Assembly (NCBI RefSeq): GCF_963921235.1
Contig: NC_086108.1
Location: 70,248,001-70,312,000, forward strand
Source of the DNA: Mobula hypostoma
Lineage: Eukaryota
Direction: 5' to 3'
DNA: 64,000 nt
Made by a program: the position numbers and the translations under genes
The notes under the pieces: model-generated
Database searches by the model: none
The model's input: only the letters and a program-made list of their open reading frames with translations
Told to the model about the DNA's origin: nothing
Part shown: positions 4,645 to 64,000 of the stretch, in pieces
How positions within the stretch are numbered: the first letter of the stretch is position 1
How the letters are laid out: each line of letters begins with the position of its first letter

Positions 4645-7600
4645 AAATTCTTCAGTTGGTTAATTTATCGTCTATATGTGCTAAACATGTGTTGATACAG
4701 TTTAAAGTAGTGCACACAGGGTTCATACTTTGAAGGTATGAGACGTGAATTAGCTAAGATAGACTGGCAAATGACACTTAAAGGATTGACGGTGGATATG
4801 CAATGGCAAGCATTTAAAGGTTGCATGGATGAACTACAACAATTGTTCATCCCAGTTTGGCAAAAGAATAAATCAAGGAAGGTAGTGCACCCGTGGCTGA
4901 CAAGTGAAATTAGGGATAGTATCAATTCCAAAGAAGAAGCATACAAATTAGCCAGAGAAAGTGGCTCACCTGAGGACTGGGAGAAATTCAGAGTTCAGCA
5001 GAGGAGGACAAAGGGCTTAATTAGGAAGGGGAAAAAAGATTATGAGAGAAAACTGGCAGGGAACATAAAAACGGACTGTAAAAGCTTTTATAGATGTGTA
5101 AAAAGGAAAAGACTGGTAAAGACAAATGTAGGTCCCCTGCAGACAAACAGGTGAATTGATTATGGGGAGCAAGGACATGGCAGACCAATTGAATAATTAC
5201 TTTGGTTCTGTCTTCACTAAGGAGGACATAAATAATCTTCCAGAAATAGTAGGGGACAGAGGGTCCAGTGAGATGGAGGAACTGAGCGAAATACATGTTA
5301 GTAGGGAAGTGGTGTTAGGTAAATTGAAGGGATTGAAGGCAGATAAATCCCCAGGGCCAGATGGTCTGCATCCTAGAGTGCTTAAGGAAGTAGCCCAAGA
5401 AATAGTGGATGCATTAGTGATAATTTTTCAAAACTCGTTAGATTCTGGACTAGTTCCTGAGGATTGGAGGGTGGCTAATGTAACTCCACTTTTTAAAAAA
5501 GGAGGGAGAGAGAAACCGGGGAATTATAGACCGGTTAGCCTAACGTCGGTGGTGGGGAAACTGCTGGAGTCAGTTATCAAGGATGTGATAACAGCACATT
5601 TGGAAAGCAGTGAAATCATCGGACAAAGTCAGCATGGATTTGTGAAAGGAAAATCATGTCTGACGAATCTCATAGAATTTTTTGAGGATGTAACTTGTAG
5701 AGTGGATAGGGGAGAACCAGTGGATGTGGTATATTTGGATTTTCAAAAGGCTTTTGACAAGGTCCCACACAGGAGATTAGTGTGCAAACTTAAAGCACAC
5801 GGTATTGGGGGTAAGGTATTGATGTGGGTGGAGAATTGGTTAGCAGACAGGAAGCAAAGAGTGGGAATAAACGGGACCTTTTCAGAATGGCAGGCGGTGA
5901 ATAGTGGGGTACCGCAAGGCTCAGTGCTGGGACCCCAGTTGTTTACAATATACATTAATGACTTAGACGAAGGAATTAAATGCAGCATCTCCAAGTTTGC
6001 GGATGACACGAAGCTGGGCAGCAGTGCTAACTGTGAGGAGGACGCTAAGAGGATGCAGGGTGACTTGGATAGGTTAGGTGAGTGGGCAAATTCATGGCAG
6101 ATGCAAGTTAAAGTGGATAAATGTGAGGTTATCCACTTTGGTGGCAAAAACAGGAAAACAGATTATTATCTGAATGGTGGCTGATTAGGAAAAAGGGAGG
6201 TGCAACAAGACCTGGGTGTCATTGTACACCAGTCATTGAAAGTGGGCATGCAGGTACAGCAGGCAGTGAAAAAGGCGAATGGCATGCTGGCATTCGTAGC
6301 AAAAGGATTCGAGTACAGGAGCAGGGAGGTACTACTGCAGTTGTACAAGGCCTTGGTGAGACCACACCTGGAGTATTGTGTGCAGTTTTGGTCCCCTAAT
6401 CTGAGGAAAGACATCCTTGCCATAGAGGGAGTACAAAGAAGGTTCACCAGATTGATTCCTGGGATGGCAGGACTTTCATATGAAAAAAGACTGGATGAAC
6501 TGGGCTTGTACTCGTTGGAATTTAGAAGATTGAGGGGGGATCTGATTGAAACGTATAAGATCCTAAAGGGTTGGACAGGCTAGATGCAGGAAGATTGTTC
6601 CCGATGTTGGGGAAGTCCAGAACGAGGGGCCACAGTTTGAGGATAGAGGGGAAGCCTTTTAGGACCGAGATTAGGAAAAACTTCTTCACACAGAGAGTGG
6701 TGAATCTGTGGAATTCTCTGCCACAGGAAACAGTTGAGGCCAGTTCATTGGCTATATTTAAGAGGGAGTTAGATATGGCCCTTGTGGCTATGGGGGTCAG
6801 GGGGTATGGAGGGAAGGCTGGGGTGGGGTTCTGAGTTGGATGATCAGCCATGATCATAATAAATGGCGGTGCAGGCTCGAAGGGCCGAATGGCCTACTCC
6901 TGCACCTATTTTCTATGTTTCTATATGTCCAAAGATAAACTATCTCATTATTATTCTTATATTAATCCAATATGTGATAGATGTCATTCCGAGATAGCTT
7001 CTTTAACTCACATGTTTTGGTCATGTCCTTTGTTGGAAAAATATTGGAAAGACATTTTTGACATTATTTCAACGGTTTCGAATATAGACTTACAACCTCA
7101 TCCAGTTACTGCTATCTTTGGATTACCAATGATAGATTCAAATTATCTAACCTCTTCAGCACGTAGGATGATTGCATTTCTTACTCTAATGGCTAGAAGA
7201 TCCATTTTGCTGAATTGGAAAGAGATTAACCCTCCTACGGTATTTCATTGGTTTTCACAAACTATGGTATGTTTGAATTTGGAAAAAATTAGAAGTGCGG
7301 TTTATGACCCTTCCATTAGATTTGAAAAAACTTGGAGGCCATTCATTCAGCATTTTCATTTGATGTAATTTGACCATTTCCAAACTTGTTTTATTTCTCT
7401 GTACTATTGGTTGAGAGGAATGGAGTCGTCGACACTAAGGTTTCTTCTTTCCCATTTTCAAGTTGTTAGTATTGCCCAAGTCTTTTAGTTTAGTTGACTA
7501 ATTCTGTTTAGTTTAGTTTAGTTTTTTTTGGGTTGGGGTTTGTTTTTTTTTCTTTTCCTTTTTCATGATTTTTCTTCAGTTTTTTGCTTTGTATTATTCA

Positions 7601-10481: not shown

Positions 10482-12916
10482 AGAATGTAGGGTTGTTTTG
10501 ATGGGTGGTTTTAGCTTTCCTAATTTTGTTTGGCATCTCTTTATAGCAAGGGGTTAGATGGGATGGAGTTTGTTAGGTGTGTTCAGGAAGTTTTCCTGAC
10601 ACAATGTGTAGATATGCCAACTAGAGGAGAGGCTGTACTTGATTTGGTATTGGGAAATGAACCTGGTCAGGTGTCACATCTCTTGGTGGGAGAGCATTTT
10701 GGAGGTAGTGATCACAACTCTATCTCCTTTAATTGGTGTAGACAATTTGGGAAGACATTTAATTGGAATAAGGGGAAATATGATGCTATGAGGCAGGAAG
10801 TTGGGAACATAAATTGGGAGCAGATATTCTCAGGGAAATACAATGCAGAAATGTGGAAATGTTCAGGGAACATTTGCATGGTGTTCTGCATAGGTATTTT
10901 CCATTGAGGCAGGGAAAGGATGGTAGGGTAAAGAACCATGGTGTACCAAGGATGTAGAAAATCTAGTTCAGAAAAGAAAAGCTTACGAAAGGTTCAAGAA
11001 ACTAAGTACTGTTAGAGCTCTAGAAAATTACAAGGGTGCAACGAAGGAGCTCAAGAATGAAATTAGGAGAGCTAGAAGGGGCCGTGAAAAGGCCTTGGTG
11101 AGCAGGATTAAGGAAAACCCCAAGGCAAGTATGTGAAGAGCAAGAGGATGAGCTGTGTGAGAATAGGACCAATCATGTGCATAAGTGGAAACGTGAATGG
11201 AGCTGGAGGAGGTAACAGAGAAACTTAATGAGTTCTTTGCTTCAGTATTCACCAGGGAAAGGACCTTGGCAATTGTGGAGATGACTTACAATGGACTGAA
11301 AAGCATAAGAGGTGTATAGACATAAGAAAAAGGATGTGCTGGAATAGTTGAAAGGTATTAGGTTTGATAAGTCACCAGGACCGGATGAAATATACCCCAG
11401 GTTACTGTGGGAAGTGAGGGAGGAGATTGCTGAGTGAGGGAGGAGATTGGTGATGATCTTTGCAACATCAATAGGAATGGGAGAAGTGCCAGAGGATTGG
11501 AAGGCTGTAAATGTCGTTCCCTTGTTCAAGAAAGGGAACAGAGCTAACCCAGGAAATTATAGACCAGTGAGCTTTACTTCAGTGGTGGGCAAGTTGTTGA
11601 AGATCCTGAGAGGCAGGATTTATGAGCATTTGGAGAGACATAATCTGATTAGGGATAGTCAGCATGGCTTTGTCAAGGGCAGGTTGTGCCTTATGAGCCC
11701 AATTGAATTCTTTAAGGATGTAACAAAACACATAGAAGGTAGAGCAGTGGATGTAGTACATATGGATTTTACTAAGGCATTTGATAAGGTTTCCCATGCA
11801 AGGCTCATTCAGAAGGTAATGAGGCAAGGGATCCAAGGATACCTTACTTTGTGGATCCAGAATTGGCTTGCCCAAAAAAGGCAGCAGATGCTTGTAGATG
11901 GTTTGTATTCTGCGTGGAGGTCAGTGACCAGCAGTGTTCTGCAGGAATCTGTTCTGGGACCCCTCTTCTTTGTGATTTTTATAAATGAATGAGGAAGGGT
12001 GGTTTAGTAAGTTTGCCGATGACACAAAAGTTGGGGGTGTTGTGGATAGTGTGGAGGGCTGTCAGAGGTTACAGCAGGACATCGATAGGATGCAGAACTG
12101 GGCTAGAGCAGTGGCAGATGGAGCTCAAACAAGGTAAGTGTGAAGTGATTCATTTTGGTAGGTCAAATTTAAAGACCTAATATGATATTAATGGTAAGAC
12201 TCTTGGCAGTGTGGAGGAACAGCGAGATCTTGGAGTCCGTGTCCGTGGGACACACAAAGCTGCTGCACAGTTTGACAGTGTTGATAAGAAGGCGTATAGT
12301 GTGATGGCCTTCATCAACCATGGGACTGAGTTCAAGAGCCATGAGGTAATGGTAAAGTTATATAAGACCTTAGTTAGACCCCACTTAGAGTGCTGTGTTC
12401 ATTTCTGGTCACCTCACTACAGGAAGGGTGTGGATACTATAGAAAGTGCAGAGAAGATTTACAAGGATGTTGCCTGGATTAGAGAGTGTGCCTTTTGAGA
12501 ACAGGTTGAGTGAACTTGGCCTTTTCTCTTTGGAGCGGTGGAGGATGAGAGGTGACCCGATAGAGGTGTATAAGATGATGAGAGGCATTGATCGTGTGGG
12601 TAGCCAGAGGCTTTTTCCCAGGACTGAATGGCTAACAGGAGGGGGCATAGGTTTAGGTGCTTGGAAGTAGGTACGAGGGGGATATCAGAGGTAAGTTTTT
12701 CACGCAGAGTGGTGAGTGAAATGCACTGCCAGCGATGGTAGTGGTGGATACAGTAGGACCTTTTTAAGAGACTTTTAAGTAGGTACACGAGCTTAGAAAA
12801 ATAGAGGGCTATGCAGCAGGGAAATTCCAGGCAGTTTCTAGAGTAAGTTACATGGTCAGCACAACATTGTGGGCCGAAGGGCCTGTAATGTGCTGTATAT
12901 TTCTATGTTTTATGTT
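10482..12916 (+). mobile_element. Decayed CR1 LINE of a second subfamily, nested in the 3' end of the old CR1
   Basis: Endonuclease tail (PTRGEAVLDLV..SDHN), RT (GNYRPVS, QHGFVKGR, DFTKAFDKV), LVRPHLEC. Tail ttctatgttttatgtt. Confidence 0.88.
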
Positions 12917-13890: not shown

Positions 13891-14200
13891 CCATAGAAAC
13901 ATAGAAAATAGGTGCAGGAGTAGGCCATTCGGCCCTTCGAGCCTGCACCGCCATTTATTATGATCATGGCTGATCATCCAACTCAGAACCCTGCCCCAGC
14001 CTTCCCTCCATACCCCCTGATCCCCGTAGCCACAAGGGCCATATCTAACTCCCTCTTAAATATAGCCAATGAACTGGCCTCAACTGTTTCCTGTGGCAGA
14101 GAATTCCACAGATTCACCACTCTCTGTGTGAAGAAGTTTTTCCTAATCTCGGTCCTAAAAGGCTTCCACTTTATCCTCAAACTGTGACCCCTCGTTCTGA
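13891..14200 (-). mobile_element. Young CR1 3' fragment, near-identical to 6618-6924
   Basis: Reverse complement matches the end of the 4728-6924 element (RKNFFTQRVVNLWNSLPQ) with few mismatches. Tail catagaaacatagaaa on the + strand. Confidence 0.9.
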
Positions 14201-33646: not shown

Positions 33647-34507
33647 TCTTGCCCCCCTTATGAATTCAGATATTTTCGGAAGATCTTATATTTGATGGAT
33701 TAACGGGCAAAATATGCATTTTTCCAGAGGAGCTATTGATTTAAGCTGCCATTCTGAATGATGACGTCACCGGAACCGCCTTGTGAATTTTTTTTTATAG
33801 ATTAATGACCCAGGTGACCAAAACTATACACAATAATGAAAGCTTAGTGTCACCAACATATTGTATAGTAGTAACACAACATCCCCTCCTTTGTGCTCAG
33901 TGCCTTGACTGATGAAGGCAAGCGTACCAAATGCTGTTTTATTCTCCTGCTAACCTGTGTACACTTGTAAATGTATGTAAGCACAAAACATAGATGCTGC
34001 TTGAACAGTTCCATCATTTTACAAAAAGAAACTGAGTAACCCACCTCTCAGCACTGCTTATGTTCCCACTTTCAGTTCTGATGAAGGATTTTTGTCCTGC
34101 AACATAAACTCTGTTTCCCTTTCCACAGATGCTGCTTGAGCTGTTGAGTGTTGACTGCATTTTCTGTTTTCTAGCATCCTGTACCTTTTAGCCATGGCTT
34201 TAAGACATCCTTCCGGAAAAATAATCCTTTTGGTGCATCTGTCATGCTCTGTAATGGGGTTTACTGTTTTTTTTTATTGCGTTCATTGGCTGGAGACTGT
34301 GACTGAAATTATTATATATTGGGTAAATATTTTAATGTCAGTCACTTGTGTGAATTTTCAAGGGCTGCTTTTTTGATTAGTTTCTGCAGGGACCTTAGTC
34401 ATTGTTTATGCAGGCCCTTTCAGTGGATTTCAGGTTGAGCAGAGGAGGTTATATGAGCTGAGGCATGAATCTCTCATTTTCTTGTTGTAGAGGCCATTTT
34501 TTCTGAT

Positions 34508-36268
34508 AGACAGAAACGTAGAAAACCTACAGCACGATACAGGCCTTTTGGCCCACAATGCTGTGCCGAAAATGTACTTTAGAAATTATCTAGGGTTACC
34601 CATATCCCTCTATTTTTCTAAGCTCCATGTACCTATCCAAGAGTCTCTTAAAAGACCCTATCGTATTTGCCTCCACCACTGTCGCCAGTAGCCCATTCCA
34701 TGCACTCACCACACTCTGCGTAAAAAGAAAAAACTTACCCCTGACATCTCCTCTGTACTAACTTCCAAGCACCTTAAAACTGTGCTCTCTTGTGTTAGCC
34801 ATTTCAGCCTTGGGAAAAAGCCTCTGACTATCCACACGACCAATGCCTCTCATCATCTTATACACCTCTATCAGATCATCTCTCATCCTCCGTCTCTCCA
34901 AGGAGAAAAGGCCAAGTTCACTCAAGCTATTCTCATAAGGCATGCTCCCCAATTCAGGCAACATCATTGTAAATATCCTCTGCATGCTTTCTATAGTTTC
35001 CACATCCTTCCTGTAGTGAGGTGACCAGAACTGAGCACAGTACTCCAAGTGGGGTCTGACCAGGGTCCTATACAACTGTAACATTACCTCTTGGCTCTTG
35101 AACTCAATCCACAGCTGATCAAGGCCAACACTCCGTATGCCTTCATAACCACGCAGTCAACCTGCGTAGCAGCTTTGAATGTCCTGTGGACTCGGACCCC
35201 AAGATCCCTCTGATCCTCCACGCTGCCCAGAGTCTTACCATTAATACTATATTCTGCCATCATATTTGACCTCCCAAAATGAACCACCTCAAACTTATCT
35301 AGGTTGAACTCCATCTGCTACTTCTCAGCCCAGTTTTGCATCCTATCGATGTCCCTCTGTAACCTCTGACAGCCCTCCACACTATCCACAACACCCCAAA
35401 CCTTTGTCATCAGGAAATTTACTAACGCATCCCTCCACTTCCTCATCCAGGTCATTTATAAAAAATCATGAAGAGAAAGGGTCCCAGAACAGATCCCTGA
35501 GGCACACCACTGGTCACTGACCTCCATGCAGAATATGACCCAACTACAACCACTCTTTGCCTTCTGTGGGCAAGCCAGTTCTGGATCCACAAAGCAAGGT
35601 CCCCTTGGATCTCATGCCTCTTCACTTTCTCGATAAGCCTTTCATGAGGTACCTTATCAAATGTCTTGCTGAAATCCATATACTGTTCTACCTTCACCAA
35701 AGTGTTTAGTCACATCCTCAAAAAATTCAATCAGGCTCGTAAGGCACGACCTGCCTTTGACAAAGCCATGCTGACTATTCCTAATCATATTATGCCTCTT
35801 CAAATATTCATAAATCCTGCCTCTCAGGATCTTCTCCATCAGCTTACGAACCACTGAAGTGAGACTCATTGGTCCATCATTTTCAGGGCAATCTCTACTC
35901 CCTTTCTTGAAAAAGGGAACAACATCTGCAACCCTCCAGTCCTTCGGAACCTCTCCTGTCCCCATTGATGATGCAAAGATCAATGCCAGAGGCTCAGCAA
36001 ACTCCTCCCTCGCCTCCCACAGTAGCCTGGGGTACATCTTGTCCAGTCCTGGAGACTTATCCAGCTTGATGCTTTTGAAAAGCTCCAGCACATCGTCTTT
36101 CTTAATGTCTATATTCTCAAGCTTTTCAGTCAACTGTAAGTCATCCCTACAATCGCCAAGGTCCTTTTCCGTAGTGAATTCTGAAGCAAAGTATTCATTA
36201 AGTACCTCTGCTACCTCCTCTGGTTCCATGCACTTTTCCACTGTCACACTTGATTGGTCCTATTCTCT
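34508..36268 (-). mobile_element. Decayed CR1 LINE, same subfamily as 10482-12916
   Basis: Minus ORFs 35657-36247, 35452-35700, 35084-35314 and 34758-35084 carry CR1 RT motifs. Confidence 0.9.
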
Positions 36269-36341
36269 TGAAGCTCTTTTTTGGTACCAATTGAGGAATA
36301 TAGCTGCGTTAAAACAAATGATATAAATAAATTAGTATATA

Positions 36342-36669
36342 CATCAAAGTTGCTGGTGAACGCAGCAGGCCAAGCAGCATCTATAGGAAGAGGCGCAGTC
36401 GACGTTTCAGGCCGAGACCCTTCGTCAGGACTAACTGAAGGAAGAGTGAGTAAGGGATTTGAAAGCTGGAGGGGGAGGGGGAGATGCAAAATGATAGGAG
36501 AAGACAGGAGGGGGAGGGATAGAGCCGAGAGCTGGACAGGTAATAGGCAAAAGGGGATACGAGACTGCGCCTCTTCCTATAGATGCTGCTTGGCCTGCTG
36601 CGTTCACCAGCAACTTTGATGTATGTTGCTTGAATTTCCAGCATCTGCAGAATTCCTGTTGTTTGCGTT
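36342..36669. mobile_element. Penelope-like element 3'-end insertion with inverted (head-to-head) structure
   Basis: Minus arm 36342-36562 and plus arm 36563-36669 both match the 3' end of the 48509-49457 element. Flanked by a 14-bp direct repeat taaattagtatata (36328-36341 and 36670-36683). Confidence 0.85.
36397..36432 (-). ncRNA. Minimal type I hammerhead ribozyme motif (Penelope-associated)
   Basis: Reverse complement reads AGUC-CUGACGA-AGGGUCUCGGCCU-GAAAC-GUC-GACU, identical to 49335-49370. Confidence 0.72.
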
Positions 36670-36859
36670 TAAATTAGTATATATTGGTTTGTTGTTTCAC
36701 AAAATGAGAATGGATCCAGAAATGTAACAGAGTGCTATAGAATCAACCTTTGTGGCTCAAAATCCCGGTGGACATTTGTTATACTTGATTTCTGATTTTT
36801 GCAGAGAAAATACATCACTGATTAAAACGCATTTTAATTAAATAAATACTCTTGCAAAT

Positions 36860-47370: not shown

Positions 47371-48508
47371 CACTAAAGCTTCCAAACGTTGTATCTGTAC
47401 CCACCTTTACCACTTACACTGGCAGCTCTTTCCATATACTCACCACATTTGTGTGGAAAAACTTATTCCTTGGGTCTCCTTTAAATGTTCCCTTTTTTAA
47501 CATTAATTCTATGCCTCTAGACTCCCTTACCCTGGGGAGGGGGCGGGGGATTTGACTGCCCATTTTATCTACGCCCTTCATGATGTTGGGGGCAGTCCAG
47601 CTTGAAGGAGGCCATGCTCACCACACGGGCAAAAAAAAAGGGTGATAAGCTGCTAATCCATTTTTTTCTTGAGTTATTTGTTGACAGCTACTAATGTAGT
47701 CCTGCACTTTTGCCACAGTAAATAAAATAGCTTACTTGATTAATTGGAGGTGAATTGCTTTTTGCATTGGAGGCCTTACTCCCTTACTTATGTTTTATTA
47801 AAAGCGTGCTTAACTGGAGCCAGCATTCCCAGACTGGCACTTTATTTGTGGAGTTGGAATCCTAAATTACTCTATCATCTTTTTTTGCACAGAGTGGTGG
47901 ATATGTGGAATGAGCTGTCAGGAGAAATGGTAATTTAAGATGCAGTTAGAATATTTAAAAGACAGTTGGACAGGTATGAGGATAGGAAGGGTTTAGACAG
48001 ATGGGTGAAATGAAGGGAAATAGATTATTTCAGGTTGGCAACCAGGTTAGTCTAGATGAGTTGAATCGAAAAGCCTGTTTCTGACCCAGTCTCTATGATT
48101 CTATGACTTTATAAACATCTTTAAGTTCACCCCTCAGTCTTATCCACTCCAGGGAAAATAGTTCCTATTTATTCAGTGTTTCATTATAATTCATGCCCTC
48201 TAGCCCCAGCAACAGCATTGTGAATCATTTCTCTGCTCTCTTGCCTAATCATATCCATCTCATAGTGTGGTGATCGGAACTGCACATTATATTCTAGGTG
48301 TGGTCTCACCAATGCCTTGAATAACTATAAAGTGACATCCTCTGTCCTTGAAGGCAGGCATGCTATATGCCTTTCTCAGTACCATGTTTACCTGTGTCAA
48401 GGAATTATGTATTTGTACCCTCGGTTTCTCTGTTCTGCAACATTCTCAGCATCCTGTTATTTGCTGTACAATTCTGCCCCAGCTTAACTTCCCAAAATGA
48501 ATCAGTTC

Positions 48509-49457
48509 CCACCACTAAGCACATCTTTCCCTCCCCCCCCCTGCATTCCGCAGGGATTGCTCCCTACGCAACGCCCTTGTCCATTCGTCCCCCCGTCCCT
48601 CCCCACTGATCTCCCTCCTGGCACTTATCCGTGTAAGCGGACAAGTGCTACACATGCCCTTACACTTCCAACCTTACCACCATTCAGGGCCCCAAACAGT
48701 CCTTCCAGGTGAGGCAACACTTCACCTGTGAGTCGGCTGGGGTGATATACTGTGTCTGGTGCTCCCGATGTGGCCTTTTATATATTGGCGAGACCTGACG
48801 CAGACTGGGAGACCACTTTGCTGAACATCTACGCTCCATCCGCCAGAGAAAGCAGGATCCCCCAGTGGCCATACATTTTAATTCCACATCCCATTCCCAT
48901 TCTGACATGTCTATCCACGGCCTCCTCTACTGTAAAGATGAAGCCACACTCAGGTTGGAGGAACAACACCTTATATTCCGTCTGGGTAGCCTCCAACCTG
49001 ATGGCATGAACATCGACTTCTCTAACTTCCGCTAATGCCCCACCTCCCCCTCGTACCCCATCTGTTACTTACTTTTATACACACATTCTTTCTCTCACTC
49101 TCCTTTTTCTCCCTCTGTCCCTCTGAATATACCCCTTGCCCATCCTCTGGGTCCCCCCTCCCCACTCCTTGTCTTTCTTCCCAGACCTCCTGTCCCATGA
49201 TCCTCTCGTATCCCTTTTGCCTATCACCTGTCCAGCTCTTGGCTCCATCCCTCCCCCTCCTGTCTTCTCCTATCATTTTGGATCTCCCCCTCCCCCTCCA
49301 ACTTTCAAATCCCTTACTCACTCTTCCTTCAGTTAGTCCTGACGAAGGGTCTCGGCCTGAAACGTCGACTGCACCTCTTCCTAGAGATGCTGCGTTCACC
49401 AGCAACTTTTATGTGTGTTGCTTGAATTTCCAGCATCTGCAGAATTCCTGTTGTTTG
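48509..49457 (+). mobile_element. 5'-truncated Penelope-like element (GIY-YIG endonuclease and 3' end)
   Basis: A frame ending at 49035 reads GPKQSFQVRQHFTCESAGVIYCVWCSRCGLLYIGET*RRLGDHFAEH...VAIHFN...LEEQHLIFRLGSLQPDGMN (GIY-YIG). Possible TSD cagttc at 48503-48508 and 49458-49463. Inserted in an old CR1 remnant. Confidence 0.88.
49335..49370 (+). ncRNA. Minimal type I hammerhead ribozyme motif (Penelope-associated)
   Basis: AGUC (stem I), CUGACGA core, AGG/CCU stem II, GAAAC core, GUC cleavage triplet, GACU (stem I partner). Confidence 0.75.
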
Positions 49458-59268: not shown

Positions 59269-61430
59269 ATCCTAGTACATTTAAGACTGCCAGCAGTACC
59301 TTTGTTGCAATGTGGATATTGTCTATTTCTTTTAATCCATGAGCTTTTCCATGGAAAATACAGATGAGGAATATTCATTTAACAATTTGTCAATCTCCTT
59401 TGGTTCTATATCTGAGAAGAATATTAATCCATAAGGTTCTTGTTCCTTAGTTGCCATTTTGCGCTTCATATACTTGAAGAATCTCTTGGGATTTCCCCTT
59501 TTTATTTTGTCTGTCAATGCTATCTCTTTATACTGTTCAAATTTCCCTCTTAAGTGTACTACTGTATCCATTGTACTCCTTAAGGGACTTGCTTGATACC
59601 ATCTGCCTATGCCTGACATCATCTTTTGCCTGTTACACTGCTGGCATTTAGGGCAGCAAAGGAGATCCTCCATCTCTGGTGGTGTTCATGGCTTCCTCTT
59701 AGTTTTGCCTATTGTCAGTCTTGCACGTCTGGGGTGAGGACTCAGGAATATCACCATACTCAGAGGATTTCTTTCCATAAGAGTTTTGTTTTACCAGTCA
59801 GGGTTGTTAGCCCCGAGCTGAACCCCCAAACCTGGAAGATCTGTGGACCACTCTTAGTCTGGCCTCTACCCTTTGACCGGTTTGGCATGAGTGACCCTAT
59901 CAAGAGCCAAAGCATAAAGTCCTGACTCCAGCCAACATAGCTCTCCAAGTCATTGAAGCACACATACCTTTAAATTACTACAAGGTTGTGGTTCTTGTGG
60001 AGGTATGCCTGACATATGCTTCCTTTATTCCTGACCAGTGCCTCAATTACCCTTGTCAACTAGGGCACTATAATCCTTTTCTTTTCCATCATGAATATGT
60101 TATCCCTGAGCTTTTCGTTTTCTCTTTTAAAAGCCTCGCTTTTGCCAAATGTCCAGAAGACCACAGAAACAGGAGCAGAATTGGGCTATTGTCTGTTCTG
60201 CCATTTGATCATGACTGATTTATTTTCATAGTTGGATAAATGTACTTTGGGATGTATTTAATAAAAAAAATACAATAATTTGTAGATGTAATTTTAATTT
60301 CTCTGTACTGAAATTTAGTTCGATTATGTGTACAGAGGAGCTGTTTATGCCTTGACAACCAATGTTTTCAGCCTCAGTGAAATAAATGTTCATGTTTACA
60401 AACAAAACAGCACATAAACAGGTCATTTGGCCTACTTGATCCAGGCCACCCTGATCTCATACAATTTATCTGCAGGGGGCCCATATCCCTTCAAACCCCT
60501 CCCATCCCTGTGCTCATCTTTAGAAGTTACAATAGAACTGGCATCTACCACTTCTACTGGCAGCTTATTCTACACACATACCATCCTCCTAAGTGAAGAA
60601 ATTTCACCTTAGATTCTCCATGACCCATGACCTCTAGTTCTAGTCTTAACCCAATCTGGGGCGGGGTGGGGGGGCGCGGTAGGCATGCATGCATTCACCC
60701 TGTTTATCCCCTTCATAATTTTTTTTTGTACAGTATCTCTGTGAGGTCTCCTCTTGTACTCTTGCACTCTAGGGAATAAATTCCTAACCTTTCAATCTTT
60801 CCCTATAACTCAGGTTCTCAAGTCCCAGTAATGTCCTTGTAAATATTCTCTACACTCTTTCAAGCTTATTAATACCTTCCCTTTAGGTATGTACACAATA
60901 CTCTAGGTCAGGCCTCTCCAACATCTTGTACAGCTTAACATAACATTCCAACTTGTGTACTCACTGTCTTGATTTATGAAGGTCAATATACTAAAAGCTC
61001 TACCTGTGATGCATTTTTAAGGAAACGTGGATCTGTATTCCCAGATCTCTTTGCTATACTGAAACAGATTTATTCATTATTGCTGTTCTAGATTTATAGT
61101 TAATGCTGCATTATGGCTTTTATCCAAAAATATTGAACTATGTATTTGTGGCTATGGATTAATAACAAATATGCTTTAATGTTTAAGGTGATCAGAATTT
61201 CTTTGAGGGATAATAGTATTGGAGTTTGTAAATGCTGCTGTGCAATTTGAATTTTATCAATGCATGCTCCCCTTTCCCTTTTAAAAAATATTCTGTATCA
61301 ATGATTGAATGAAGGCAGGTAGGATTTTTTTGAAATTTCAAGATTTAAGCAATAGTGATTTGAAACTTTATATGTGCTGTAAGTTGGAATAATATTATTT
61401 CAACTTAATATTCTATATTGCTGATCTATA

Positions 61431-62082
61431 TTGTGGATCAGCAAGATAAATTATTAAGTTGAAATTGTCACAACTATTTCAATTTGCATTAGTTATGTTC
61501 AATAAAGTGTGTATTGGTCCAGGAGAGAATACTAATTTTGGTTTGCTTAGCTGTTTAGATGAATTTGGAGGATCTTGCAAAAACTGTATTGATGTTACTT
61601 TTCCAGTGCTTTAGATGCCTACCAAAGTGCTGAGATGCAGTGGAAAAAAATTGTCTTGCATACTGTTCATACAAATCATATTATTAGAAAATAGCAATGC
61701 AGAATTAAGTGTAACAGCTCTATCTCATCCCATAATTAGCTCCTATTAAATTACCCTTCTTAAAAATATTACTTTCAGCATAATATGTCAAACTGTATAA
61801 TATGAAAATTTAAATGGCTTGTGCTCCATTTTTGCTTGAAGTATTTAGAATACGAATAATTTAAACTTTATGCATTGAAATCCCTTTTTTGTGGATCAGC
61901 AATATAGAATATTAAGTTGAAATTGTCACAACCATTTCAATTTGCATTAGCTATGTTCAATAATGGGTGTATTGGTCCAGGAGAGAATACTAATTTTGGT
62001 TTGCTTAGCTGTTTAAATGAATTTGGAGGATCTTGCAAAAACTGTATTGATGTTACTTTATCAGTGCTTTAGATGCCTACCA
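61431..62082 (+). repeat. ~194-bp direct duplication (61431-61624 and 61889-62082)
   Basis: Both copies run ttgtggatcagcaa...gctttagatgcctacca with only scattered mismatches. Confidence 0.9.
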
Positions 62083-62549
62083 TAATTAGTCTAGGTTTCA
62101 GACGCACATGAAAGAGCAAGGATCATTGCTGCCTGGCTGACTATGATTCTGAAGTCTCAACCTTCAAGTATCCTTTCCTCCTTCAACCAAAGGTTGTGCT
62201 AATTCATTAGTGGTAGTGAATTTTATTATCAAAGCTAGTCTTCGCTGAGATTAAGATGTGGATTATTTTGTTAGGGATCAATTTGGTGCAGCAGGAACAG
62301 GCTGTATAAGCCTTTTGCATTTTGAGTGTCAGGCCCGATCTCTTGTACTCTTTGTTTTCCTATCTGACGCCAGACTTCCAAGGCAAATGCTCTATTCCAA
62401 GCTCTCATGGGAAGAGATTATCAGCTGGACAGAGGAAACAATTCATGGATATGTTCAAAGACATCTTAAAGAAATTCAACCTCTCCTAGCAATTTTTGAC
62501 TCATGACTGCTGAAATTGGATTAGCTGAATTTGAAACAGAAGGTTCTAC

Positions 62550-63625
62550 AGAAGATGGAAATCCAGAGCAACACACACAAAATGCTGGAAGAACTCAGCA
62601 GGTCAGGCAGCATCTATGGAGAGGAATAAGCAGTTGGCGTTTTGGGCTGAGACCCTAAAGGGAGGACTGGAAAGGAAGGGGGAAGAAACCAGAATATTTA
62701 AGCATGGGGAGGGGAAGGAGTGCGAACTAGAAGGTGATGGGTGAAGCCAGGTGCGTGGGGAAGGGGGTAATGAAGGAAGAAGCTGGGAGGTGATGGGTGG
62801 AAAAGGTAAAGGGGTAGAGAAGAAGTAATCTAATAGGAGAGGAGAGTGTACCATGGGAGAAAGGGAAGGAGGAGGGTCACCATGGGGAGGTGATAGGTAT
62901 GTAAGGGAGAGCCAGTGTAGGGATTTGGAGAAGGGGAAAGAAAAATAATCAGAATGAGGAATCAGTGTTCATGCCATCAGGTTGGAGGCTACCTTGGTGC
63001 TCCTCCATCCTGAGATTGGCCTTCCCTCATTGTGACAGAAGATGAAGCCGCGGACCAACATGTCAGAATGAGATTGGTGATAGGAATTAAAATGGTAGGC
63101 CACCAGGGAATCCTATTTTTTTGCGGATATAATGAAGATACTTGGCAAAGCAGACTTTCAAGCTACGTCAGGTCTCACCAATGTAAAGGAGGCCACATCG
63201 GGAGCACTGGATACAGTAGACGTCCCCAAAAGATTGACAGGTGCAGTGATGCCTCATCTTGAAGTTCTGTCTGAGGCCCTGAATGGAGTTGAGTGAGGAG
63301 GTGAATTGGTAGTTGTAGTACTTCTTACAGGAATAAGTGCCAGAAGGAGGATTGGTGGGAAGGGATGAATAGTCAAGGGAACCACGGAGGGAGCGATCCC
63401 TGTGAAAAGTGGGGGGGGGGGAGTTGTGGGGGAGAGATTAAGATGTTTGATAGTAGGGTCCTGTTGAGGATGATTGAGGTTGCAGAGAATGATGTGATGG
63501 ATGCAGAGACTCATGAGCTGACAGGTGAGGACAAGAGAAACTCTCTGCATTAAGGTGGTGGGAAGAATGGATGAGCATGGATATCTGGAAAATGGATGAG
63601 ATGCAGTTGAGGGCAGTTTCAATGG
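62550..63625 (-). mobile_element. Old Penelope-like element remnant
   Basis: Reverse complement aligns by eye to 48509-49457 (atgccatcaggttggaggctacc, ggaggccacatcgggagcac, ctcagcaggtcaggcagcatctatgg). Confidence 0.78.
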
Positions 63626-64000
63626 TTGTTAGTAGAATTTGGGATGGGATTAAGAACCTCCAAGGCCATGAATCAGGAATACACAAAAGGCTCTGTAAGT
63701 AGTAGATGGAACATAAACAGCCCATTGTCTGCTCCATCAGCTAACACTGGTTCTGTTTGATAGAAGAGTCTGCTGTTTACACATTGGCCCCACAGGACTG
63801 AGTAGAAGCAACTCACCTTTGATCCCTAAAGACTTACTGGGAAGAAGTATTGTTAAAGTTCAAACTACATTTATTATCAAAGTACATATACTATATACAA
63901 CCTTGATATTCATCTCTTTACAGGCAGTCACAAAACAAACCCATTACAATCAATTTAAGAAAAATATTAAACCCCCAATGTGCAGGGGGAAAAAAGAAAC

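What the first reader, a model, noticed from the sequence alone, without database searches (positions are those of the whole stretch)
36328..36683. Inverted Penelope insertion whose second arm begins at the predicted ribozyme cleavage site
Seen: between 14-bp direct repeats lie a minus arm (36342-36562) containing the whole hammerhead and a plus arm (36563-36669). The plus arm starts GACTGCGCCTC, the nucleotides immediately after GUC^ in the hammerhead (compare 49364-49377), and runs ~107 nt to the family 3' end. The junction sits in a 2-nt GA microhomology, so it is exact to within 2 nt. Inference: this may be a genomic fossil of in vivo self-cleavage, in which the 3' cleavage product was reverse-transcribed to its 5' end and then joined to an oppositely primed cDNA. 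That would link ribozyme cleavage to the formation of inverted pseudo-LTRs.
Basis: partly seen in the sequence, partly recalled or inferred. Interest (0 to 1): 0.75.

Follow-up and report, generated by a model that had tools for sequence, protein, structure and literature searches.

The report
Penelope insertion with inverted arm
A short, recent jumping-gene insertion in a ray-like fish genome has two outward-facing arms, one of which starts at the predicted cut site of the element's hammerhead ribozyme, but copies of this family mostly break off elsewhere, so the match is more likely a coincidence than a record of the ribozyme cutting in living cells.

Summary
Observation confirmed. There is a perfect 14-bp target duplication. 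The antisense arm spans −162/−164 to +59/+62 (numbered from the predicted GUC^ bond) and holds an intact minimal hammerhead. The sense arm spans +1/+3 to +107. They join through a 2-nt GA microhomology. The family is a Neptune-type Penelope-like element (PLE). An inverted truncated arm, with a tail on one end only, is published PLE architecture.

Of the 10 displayed 5'-side loose-end rows, 6 lie at −30 to −32, the ribozyme's upstream edge, and none lies within 5 nt of the cut. Only 24 of 587 rows were shown, so a modest enrichment is not excluded. One lead: 4 of 12 displayed joints abut the bond at −1/−2. A contig from a related organism fits an empty site.

Best reading: priming at both nicks, with the cDNAs joined head to head and no need for cleavage (0.65). 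Cleavage fossil: 0.25. The scan flagged the same pattern at other loci of this genome, with similar verdicts.

The parts
36328..36341 (.). Left copy of the 14-bp AT-rich target-site duplication; its last 3 nt also match the element at +60 to +62
36342..36562 (-). Antisense (inverted) arm: element positions +59 to -162 (extendable to +62 and -164); ends without the tail
36396..36433 (-). Minimal type-I hammerhead motif with intact core; predicted scissile bond between 36401 and 36400
   Evidence: pattern as in PMC4209133
36563..36564 (.). GA microhomology at the head-to-head junction of the two arms
36563..36669 (+). Sense arm: element positions +1 (to +3) through +107
36563..36624 (+). 62 nt duplicated in inverted orientation, 100% identical to 36339-36400
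36625..36669 (+). About 45-nt 'tail' present on the sense arm only
   Evidence: the tail concept is from PMC8557442 and PMC11167929
36670..36683 (.). Right copy of the target-site duplication
48508..49457 (+). Longer 5'-truncated copy of the same family: broken linker plus GIY-YIG endonuclease frame (48637-49032), intact hammerhead core (bond at 49366/49367), 11-nt deletion downstream of the cut, candidate 6-bp duplication at 48503 and 49458
62521..63629 (-). Older sister-subfamily copy with decayed hammerhead
34065..34149 (+). Very decayed short copy that covers the hammerhead region

Best explanation
This is one recent insertion of a Neptune-type Penelope-like retrotransposon with two outward-facing arms inside a 14-bp target duplication, likely made by reverse transcription primed at both DNA nicks, and the sense arm likely stops beside the predicted ribozyme cut site by ordinary premature termination rather than because the RNA was cut there. 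Shown: the target duplication, the arm limits, the 62-nt identical overlap and the two microhomologies. Inferred steps: (1) the GIY-YIG endonuclease nicks both strands 14 bp apart in AT-rich DNA; (2) one nick primes cDNA at the tail end (+107) and the other at about +60, the tail-less start, helped by a 3-nt match; (3) the first cDNA ends at +1 to +3 and the second at -162 to -164, having read through an uncut hammerhead; (4) the two cDNA 3' ends anneal through GA/TC and are filled in. The templates were either two RNAs in a dimeric complex or two repeats of one tandem transcript; one RNA copied twice over 62 nt is also possible.
For: An inverted 5'-truncated copy at the 5' side, with a 30-40 bp tail on one end only, is described as typical of PLEs, including Naiads that lack canonical hammerheads (PMC8557442 passages), so inversion does not need a ribozyme. 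The purified anole PLE protein cleaves and extends both strands and starts at two internal sites separated by the tail. Its hammerhead mutants still insert, and no RNA-seq reads began or ended at the cut (PMC11167929). In L1 twin priming the cDNA ends join by microcomplementarity, and 283 of 1,703 inversions carry an internal duplication (10.1101/2024.08.27.596794 passages). In one search, 6 of the 10 displayed 5'-side loose-end rows are at -30 to -32 in all four runs, and 0 of 10 lie within 5 nt of the cut. The antisense arm itself spans an uncut hammerhead. A lone RNA of this arm is predicted to fold the CUGA core into another hairpin. About 3-22 chance hits are expected across the scanned windows.
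Against: The start is exact to 2 nt at the one bond named in advance. Only 24 of 587 loose-end rows were displayed, so a several-fold excess at the cut would be hidden; unlisted rows average about 3.5 contigs against thresholds of 16-48. Sister subfamilies diverge just 3' of the cut and would be scored at the wrong place, especially in X14 and X16. Part of the -32 peak is sister-subfamily sequence, not truncation. Four of the 12 displayed joints with filler letters have one side at -1/-2, and three more at +3/+5. The 62-nt overlap is longer than the 22-bp median for L1 internal duplications. Earlier notes report other single cases at the cut site (e1-7790562, e1-9850483; unchecked).
Confidence: 0.65

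Rival explanations
1. Cleavage fossil. One template was cut by the hammerhead, perhaps when two RNAs were brought together as a dimer in the protein complex. Reverse transcriptase ran off its 5' end at +1, and that cDNA was joined to a second cDNA made on an uncut RNA. This would be a minor route, not the usual origin of inverted arms.
For: The start is at +1 to +3 with no upstream base matched. The core is intact, and the palindromic ACGU would need a partner RNA (PMC4209133). The anole PLE hammerhead cleaves in vitro only with protein added, and the protein is predicted to be a dimer. Ribozyme cut sites do define 5' junctions in R2 and Perere-3 (abstracts of PMC3774820 and PMC8501958). Four of 12 displayed joints abut the bond. 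Three of them remain at -1/-2 after allowing for a CpG change; the depth-weighted chance of 3 or more of 12 is 0.002-0.004, a post hoc figure on rows selected by the tool.
Against: There is no displayed loose-end row at the cut in any of four runs, whereas -30 to -32 appears in all four. Cleavage was dispensable in vitro and no reads ended at the cut in the anole. The joints at -1/-2 would mark the end of the 5' product, not the start of the 3' product, if they are same-strand joints; if they are strand switches, they include bases that a 3' product cannot supply. The bond is a CpG, which piles alignment ends there.
Confidence: 0.25
2. The shape arose after insertion or is not real: two separate insertions at one spot, a later local rearrangement of a longer copy, or an assembly error.
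For: No displayed contig of run X1 (the best holder) covers the left flank or spans the junction, so the junction was not confirmed in independent data.
Against: A single perfect 14-bp duplication encloses both arms. The arms are 100% identical over 62 nt while the nearest other copy is about 90% identical. One contig of organism B follows the left flank to exactly the last base of the duplication and then leaves the reference, as an empty site would (record 25).
Confidence: 0.05

Closest known systems
Inverted/tandem insertion structures of endonuclease-bearing Penelope-like elements (Craig et al. 2021, PMC8557442; passages read)
   Same: 5' truncation, an inverted truncated copy adjoining the 5' side, a tail on one end only, AT-rich target, hammerhead in the terminal repeat.
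   Different: Here both arms are tiny (about 221 and 107 nt), the target duplication is clear, the tail is about 45 nt rather than 30-40, and one arm begins at the predicted scissile bond.
Poseidon of Anolis carolinensis, internal initiation at two sites (Frangieh et al. 2024, PMC11167929; parts 1-2 of 4 read)
   Same: Both strands extended; two start sites separated by the tail, matching arm ends at about +60 and +107; hammerhead upstream of the start sites.
   Different: A different clade (Poseidon versus the Neptune-type linker here). That paper does not treat inverted junctions and found no RNA ends at the cut.
Minimal type-I hammerheads of metazoan PLEs (Cervera and De la Pena 2014, PMC4209133; parts 1-2 of 4 read)
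   Same: Conserved core, no stem III, palindromic 15.2-16.2 positions, 5-bp stem I, expected to work as dimers.
   Different: Stem II here is short (3-4 bp). No activity has been measured for this family.
L1 twin priming (as described in 10.1101/2024.08.27.596794; passages read)
   Same: Both nicks prime cDNA, the ends join by microcomplementarity, 5' inversion inside one target duplication, occasional internal duplication.
   Different: No poly(A) priming; the second primer sits at a probable family-specific start site; the overlap is 62 nt against a 22-bp median; different endonuclease and reverse transcriptase.
Ribozyme-defined 5' ends of R2 (HDV-like) and Perere-3 (twister variant) (PMC3774820, PMC8501958; abstracts only)
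   Different: There the ribozyme is at the element's 5' end and the cut marks the standard junction. Here it is near the 3' end, and the cut site is not among the top displayed breakpoints.

Membership tests
Penelope-like elements (endonuclease-bearing) | [quoted passage not shown] | tested here: met
   The 48637-49032 frame is 91% identical to P0001. P0001 shows a YIDD reverse-transcriptase-type motif by inspection and hits Pfam GIY-YIG at E=5e-4, 20.9 bits, just under the 22.6 cut-off. The two window pieces alone gave no Pfam hit. The insertion itself holds only the terminal repeat and is tied to the family by 90.6% DNA identity.
Penelope-like elements (endonuclease-bearing) | Hammerhead motif in the terminal repeat downstream of the frame | tested here: met
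   Core motif at 36428 (-) and 49339 (+); pairing.
Penelope-like elements (endonuclease-bearing) | Inverted or tandem truncated units with a tail on one end | tested here: met
   Antisense arm ends at +59/+62 and sense arm at +107; description.
Neptune clade | CX2-5CxxC zinc-finger-like linker between reverse transcriptase and endonuclease | tested here: met
   C-x4-C-x2-C spacing in P0001-P0003; split by a frameshift in the window copy; criterion from PMC8557442. Nematis shares such a linker.
Neptune clade | Placement in a reverse-transcriptase tree with Neptune references | not tested
   No reference set was fetched.
Minimal type-I hammerhead | CUGANGA and GAAA cores, stems I and II, palindrome replacing stem III | tested here: met
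   Rfam gave 0 hits at gathering thresholds, and the motif is not the predicted lowest-energy fold in context.
Minimal type-I hammerhead | Self-cleavage after GUC | not testable with these tools
   Needs a cleavage assay or RNA-end mapping.
Retroelements whose junctions are set by a ribozyme cut (R2, Perere-3 type) | The dominant 5' junction of genomic copies coincides with the cut site | tested here: not met
   Top displayed 5'-side rows are at -30 to -32; 0 of 10 lie near the cut. A minor peak is not excluded.
Twin-priming inversions | One target duplication, microhomology at the second primer site and at the inversion junction | tested here: met
   14-bp duplication, 3-nt match at the second primer site, 2-nt match at the junction.
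Twin-priming inversions | Both cDNAs copied from one RNA molecule | not testable with these tools
   The 62-nt identical overlap fits one RNA, a tandem RNA or two RNAs from one source.

The most novel reading that the evidence does not exclude
The minimal hammerhead of this very abundant vertebrate Penelope-like family does cut in the germline during retrotransposition, in a minority of events, when two RNAs pair in the dimeric protein complex. Both products leave genomic footprints: arms that start at +1 (this locus) and tandem units that end at -1 (the joints). That would be genomic evidence that PLE minimal hammerheads act in vivo.
Probability: 0.25. Interest if true: 0.65.

Novelty: new member of a known kind. 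Interest (0 to 1): 0.3.

Why it matters
Whether the hammerheads carried by most Penelope-like elements ever cut in vivo is open. PMC8557442 calls their function unclear, and PMC11167929 found cleavage dispensable in vitro and no RNA ends at the site. A family with this many copies turns the question into a counting exercise on one assembly. This single locus does not settle it. It is still a clean example of both-nick priming at the two tail-defining start sites. It also points to a sharper test than 5' truncations: units whose 3' end lies at -1, where the background should be low because normal 3' ends lie at the tail sites.

Tried and rejected
No whole genome is held for this window, so no direct breakpoint histogram could be made.

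DNA pattern scans gave no family members. The 2 viral and 106 metagenome matches to a 19-nt 3'-end pattern were chance: 0 of 108 loci aligned beyond 35 nt. A hammerhead pattern gave 0 hits in prokaryote genomes and viral contigs.

Rfam gave 0 hits. Pfam gave 0 hits on the two window pieces. Folding z-scores of the motif region were unremarkable (0.12, -0.30, -0.83). The co-fold of two 38-nt cores gave an intermolecular duplex, not a test of catalysis.

No RNA holder was listed, and all runs offered were contigs, so RNA ends could not be examined. Run X1 showed no cover of the left flank, which proves nothing. No strand-switch joint was among the 15 of 16 rows shown in table 5; contigs break inside high-copy repeats, so I draw nothing from that. 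I did not use contig depth as a copy number.

I rejected reading the whole -32 peak as truncation, because its loose letters resemble the upstream sequence of the sister subfamily seen at 62.7 kb. The -30 and -31 rows (37 and 66 contigs, median loose length 249 and 202 nt, agreement 0.40 and 0.34) look more like true junctions with unique DNA.

Paper searches listed no paper whose title or abstract start, or whose passages I read, reports PLE inversion junctions or 5' ends at the hammerhead cut. The library lacks most subscription papers. Arkhipova 2006 and 2017 and Evgen'ev and Arkhipova 2005 did not appear in these listings and were not read. Fig. S2 of PMC11167929, which bears on read ends, was not seen.

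Full report
Observation. Numbering is from the predicted scissile bond, with +1 the G after GUC. The window shows a perfect 14-bp direct repeat at 36328-36341 and 36670-36683, found nowhere else in the window; its chance at a given place is about 2e-8. Between the repeats lie an antisense arm (36342-36562; element +59 to -162) and a sense arm (36563-36669; +1 to +107). The antisense arm can be extended 3 nt into the left repeat and 2 nt (GA) into the sense arm. The sense arm cannot be extended upstream of +1, so it starts at +1 to +3. The arms share 62 nt at 100% identity, while the copy at 49.2-49.4 kb is 90.6% identical.

What the element is. The copy at 48508-49457 carries a broken frame. 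It is 91% identical to a protein that its source labels Mobula hypostoma, and 10 of the 11 hits carry ray names, so the host is ray-like. Those proteins show a YIDD motif, a C-x4-C-x2-C linker and a GIY-YIG domain just under Pfam's cut-off. That is a Penelope-like element (PLE) of the Neptune type, by the linker criterion in PMC8557442 (passages); I made no tree. The terminal region holds a minimal type-I hammerhead: 5-bp stem I, intact core, short stem II, and palindromic ACGU instead of stem III. This is the dimer-dependent form of PMC4209133 (parts 1-2 of 4). Rfam does not see it, and in its own context a lone RNA is predicted to bury the core in another hairpin. Two more decayed copies lie at 62.5-63.6 kb and 34.1 kb. 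Of the five 5' ends in the window, one is at the cut.

The architecture is known. PMC8557442 describes an inverted 5'-truncated copy next to the 5' end, and a 30-40 bp tail on one end only, as typical of PLEs, including clades without canonical hammerheads. PMC11167929 (parts 1-2 of 4) shows that a PLE protein cleaves and extends both strands and starts at two internal sites that bound the tail. It also shows that the hammerhead cuts only with protein present, that dead-hammerhead RNAs insert normally, and that no RNA-seq reads begin or end at the cut. The arm ends here (about +60 and +107) fit two such start sites. Joining of two cDNA ends by microcomplementarity, and an internal duplication in 283 of 1,703 inversions, are described for L1 twin priming (10.1101/2024.08.27.596794, passages).

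No genome is held and the pattern scans gave only chance hits. I therefore laid contigs of four public runs, from four organism labels, on the left flank plus the antisense arm, where the cut site occurs once. The runs laid 64,048, 45,746, 10,316 and 10,279 contigs, of which 1,370, 1,001, 734 and 451 fitted only in part. The tool showed 24 of 587 loose-end rows; 10 are on the element's 5' side. Six of these 10 lie at -30 to -32, in all four runs, and none lies within 5 nt of the cut. If the rows shown are the largest, the cut site has fewer than 48, 18, 35 and 16 contigs, against about 3.5 for an average unlisted row.

Limits of that test. A several-fold excess at the cut would be invisible. 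Sister subfamilies differ just 3' of the cut and are poorly sampled there in X14 and X16. The -32 rows are partly sister-subfamily sequence, while the -30 and -31 rows (37 and 66 contigs, long and heterogeneous loose parts) look like real junctions. X1 was saturated, so some ends were not counted. The fair statement is that the cut site is not the dominant breakpoint, and a minor peak is untested.

Evidence in the other direction. Of 59 joints with filler letters, 12 were shown. Four have one side at -1 or -2, and three more at +3 or +5. The tool does not print orientation for these rows. The same-strand reading is forced for 3 of the 12, including one of the four. On that reading they are short tandem copies of the hammerhead whose first unit ends where a 5' cleavage product would end, followed by non-templated letters. 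One of the four extends to +3 through a CpG change. For the remaining three, the depth-weighted chance is 0.002-0.004, post hoc and on selected rows. This is a lead, not a result.

Empty site. One contig of organism B (run X5, record 25, 290 nt) follows 36270-36341 with one mismatch, and its remaining 190 letters did not lay on the reference. It stops on the last base of the duplication, as an empty site would; the letters were not shown. The insertion is probably recent, which the perfect duplication and identical arms also suggest.

Mechanism. Most likely (0.65): both nicks primed reverse transcription, at +107 and about +60. One cDNA read through an uncut hammerhead to -162/-164, the other stopped at +1 to +3, and the two joined through GA. 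The stop needs no catalysis: about 3-22 such hits are expected among the windows scanned, on an assumed four copies per window. Less likely (0.25): the sense-arm template was cut, as happens for R2 and Perere-3 (abstracts). Even then a second, uncut template is needed, and cleavage would be a minor route. Later rearrangement or artefact: 0.05.

Earlier notes of the scan, unchecked AI notes, report the same pattern at other loci of this genome. They describe a main breakpoint at the ribozyme's upstream edge and a cut site only mildly favoured. My one search agrees on the upstream edge; I could not test 'mildly favoured'.

Verdict. Real structure, known kind, suggestive but unproven coincidence. 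I found no paper reporting PLE junctions at the hammerhead cut, within the library's limits; of 10.64898/2026.07.22.740005 I read part 1 of 5. Interest 0.3; 0.65 if in vivo cleavage footprints are confirmed.

Noticed in passing
window 36430-36432 (element -30 to -32): The strongest displayed 5'-side breakpoints in all four runs lie at the upstream edge of hammerhead stem I. This spot is also the loop (-34 to -29) of a predicted alternative hairpin -47 to -17. It directly follows a pyrimidine tract and AG that resemble a 3' splice site; PMC4209133 maps the D. virilis Penelope intron end to the 5' end of helix I. cDNA snap-back at stem I is another untested idea.
   Followed up: partly
table 5c; window 36396-36402: Seven of 12 displayed joints with filler letters have one side between -2 and +5 of the predicted cut. 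Six look like 26-56 nt tandem copies of the hammerhead alone and one is a deletion. They could be template jumps to the 3' end of a cleaved RNA, and would place two hammerheads side by side.
   Followed up: partly
P0004, P0005, P0009-P0011: Several annotated ray protein isoforms (named by their sources as mucin-2, DIPK1C, chitinase-domain protein 1, an NLRP3-like protein, ABHD14A) contain pieces of this element's endonuclease frame: exonised copies or annotation errors.
   Followed up: no
window 61397-61465 and 61431-61624 / 61889-62082: A 69-nt imperfect palindrome (84%) overlaps the start of a 194-nt direct duplication (94.8% identical) 458 nt apart; not related to the Penelope family by the searches run.
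   Followed up: no
window 6618-6924 (+) and 13893-14199 (-): Two copies of a 307-nt repeat, 97.7% identical, in opposite orientation about 7 kb apart: another young repeat family.
   Followed up: no
window 34514-36267 (-) and 11159-12910 (+): A 1.8-kb repeat, 79% identical between copies, ends about 60 nt left of the insertion; not identified.
   Followed up: no
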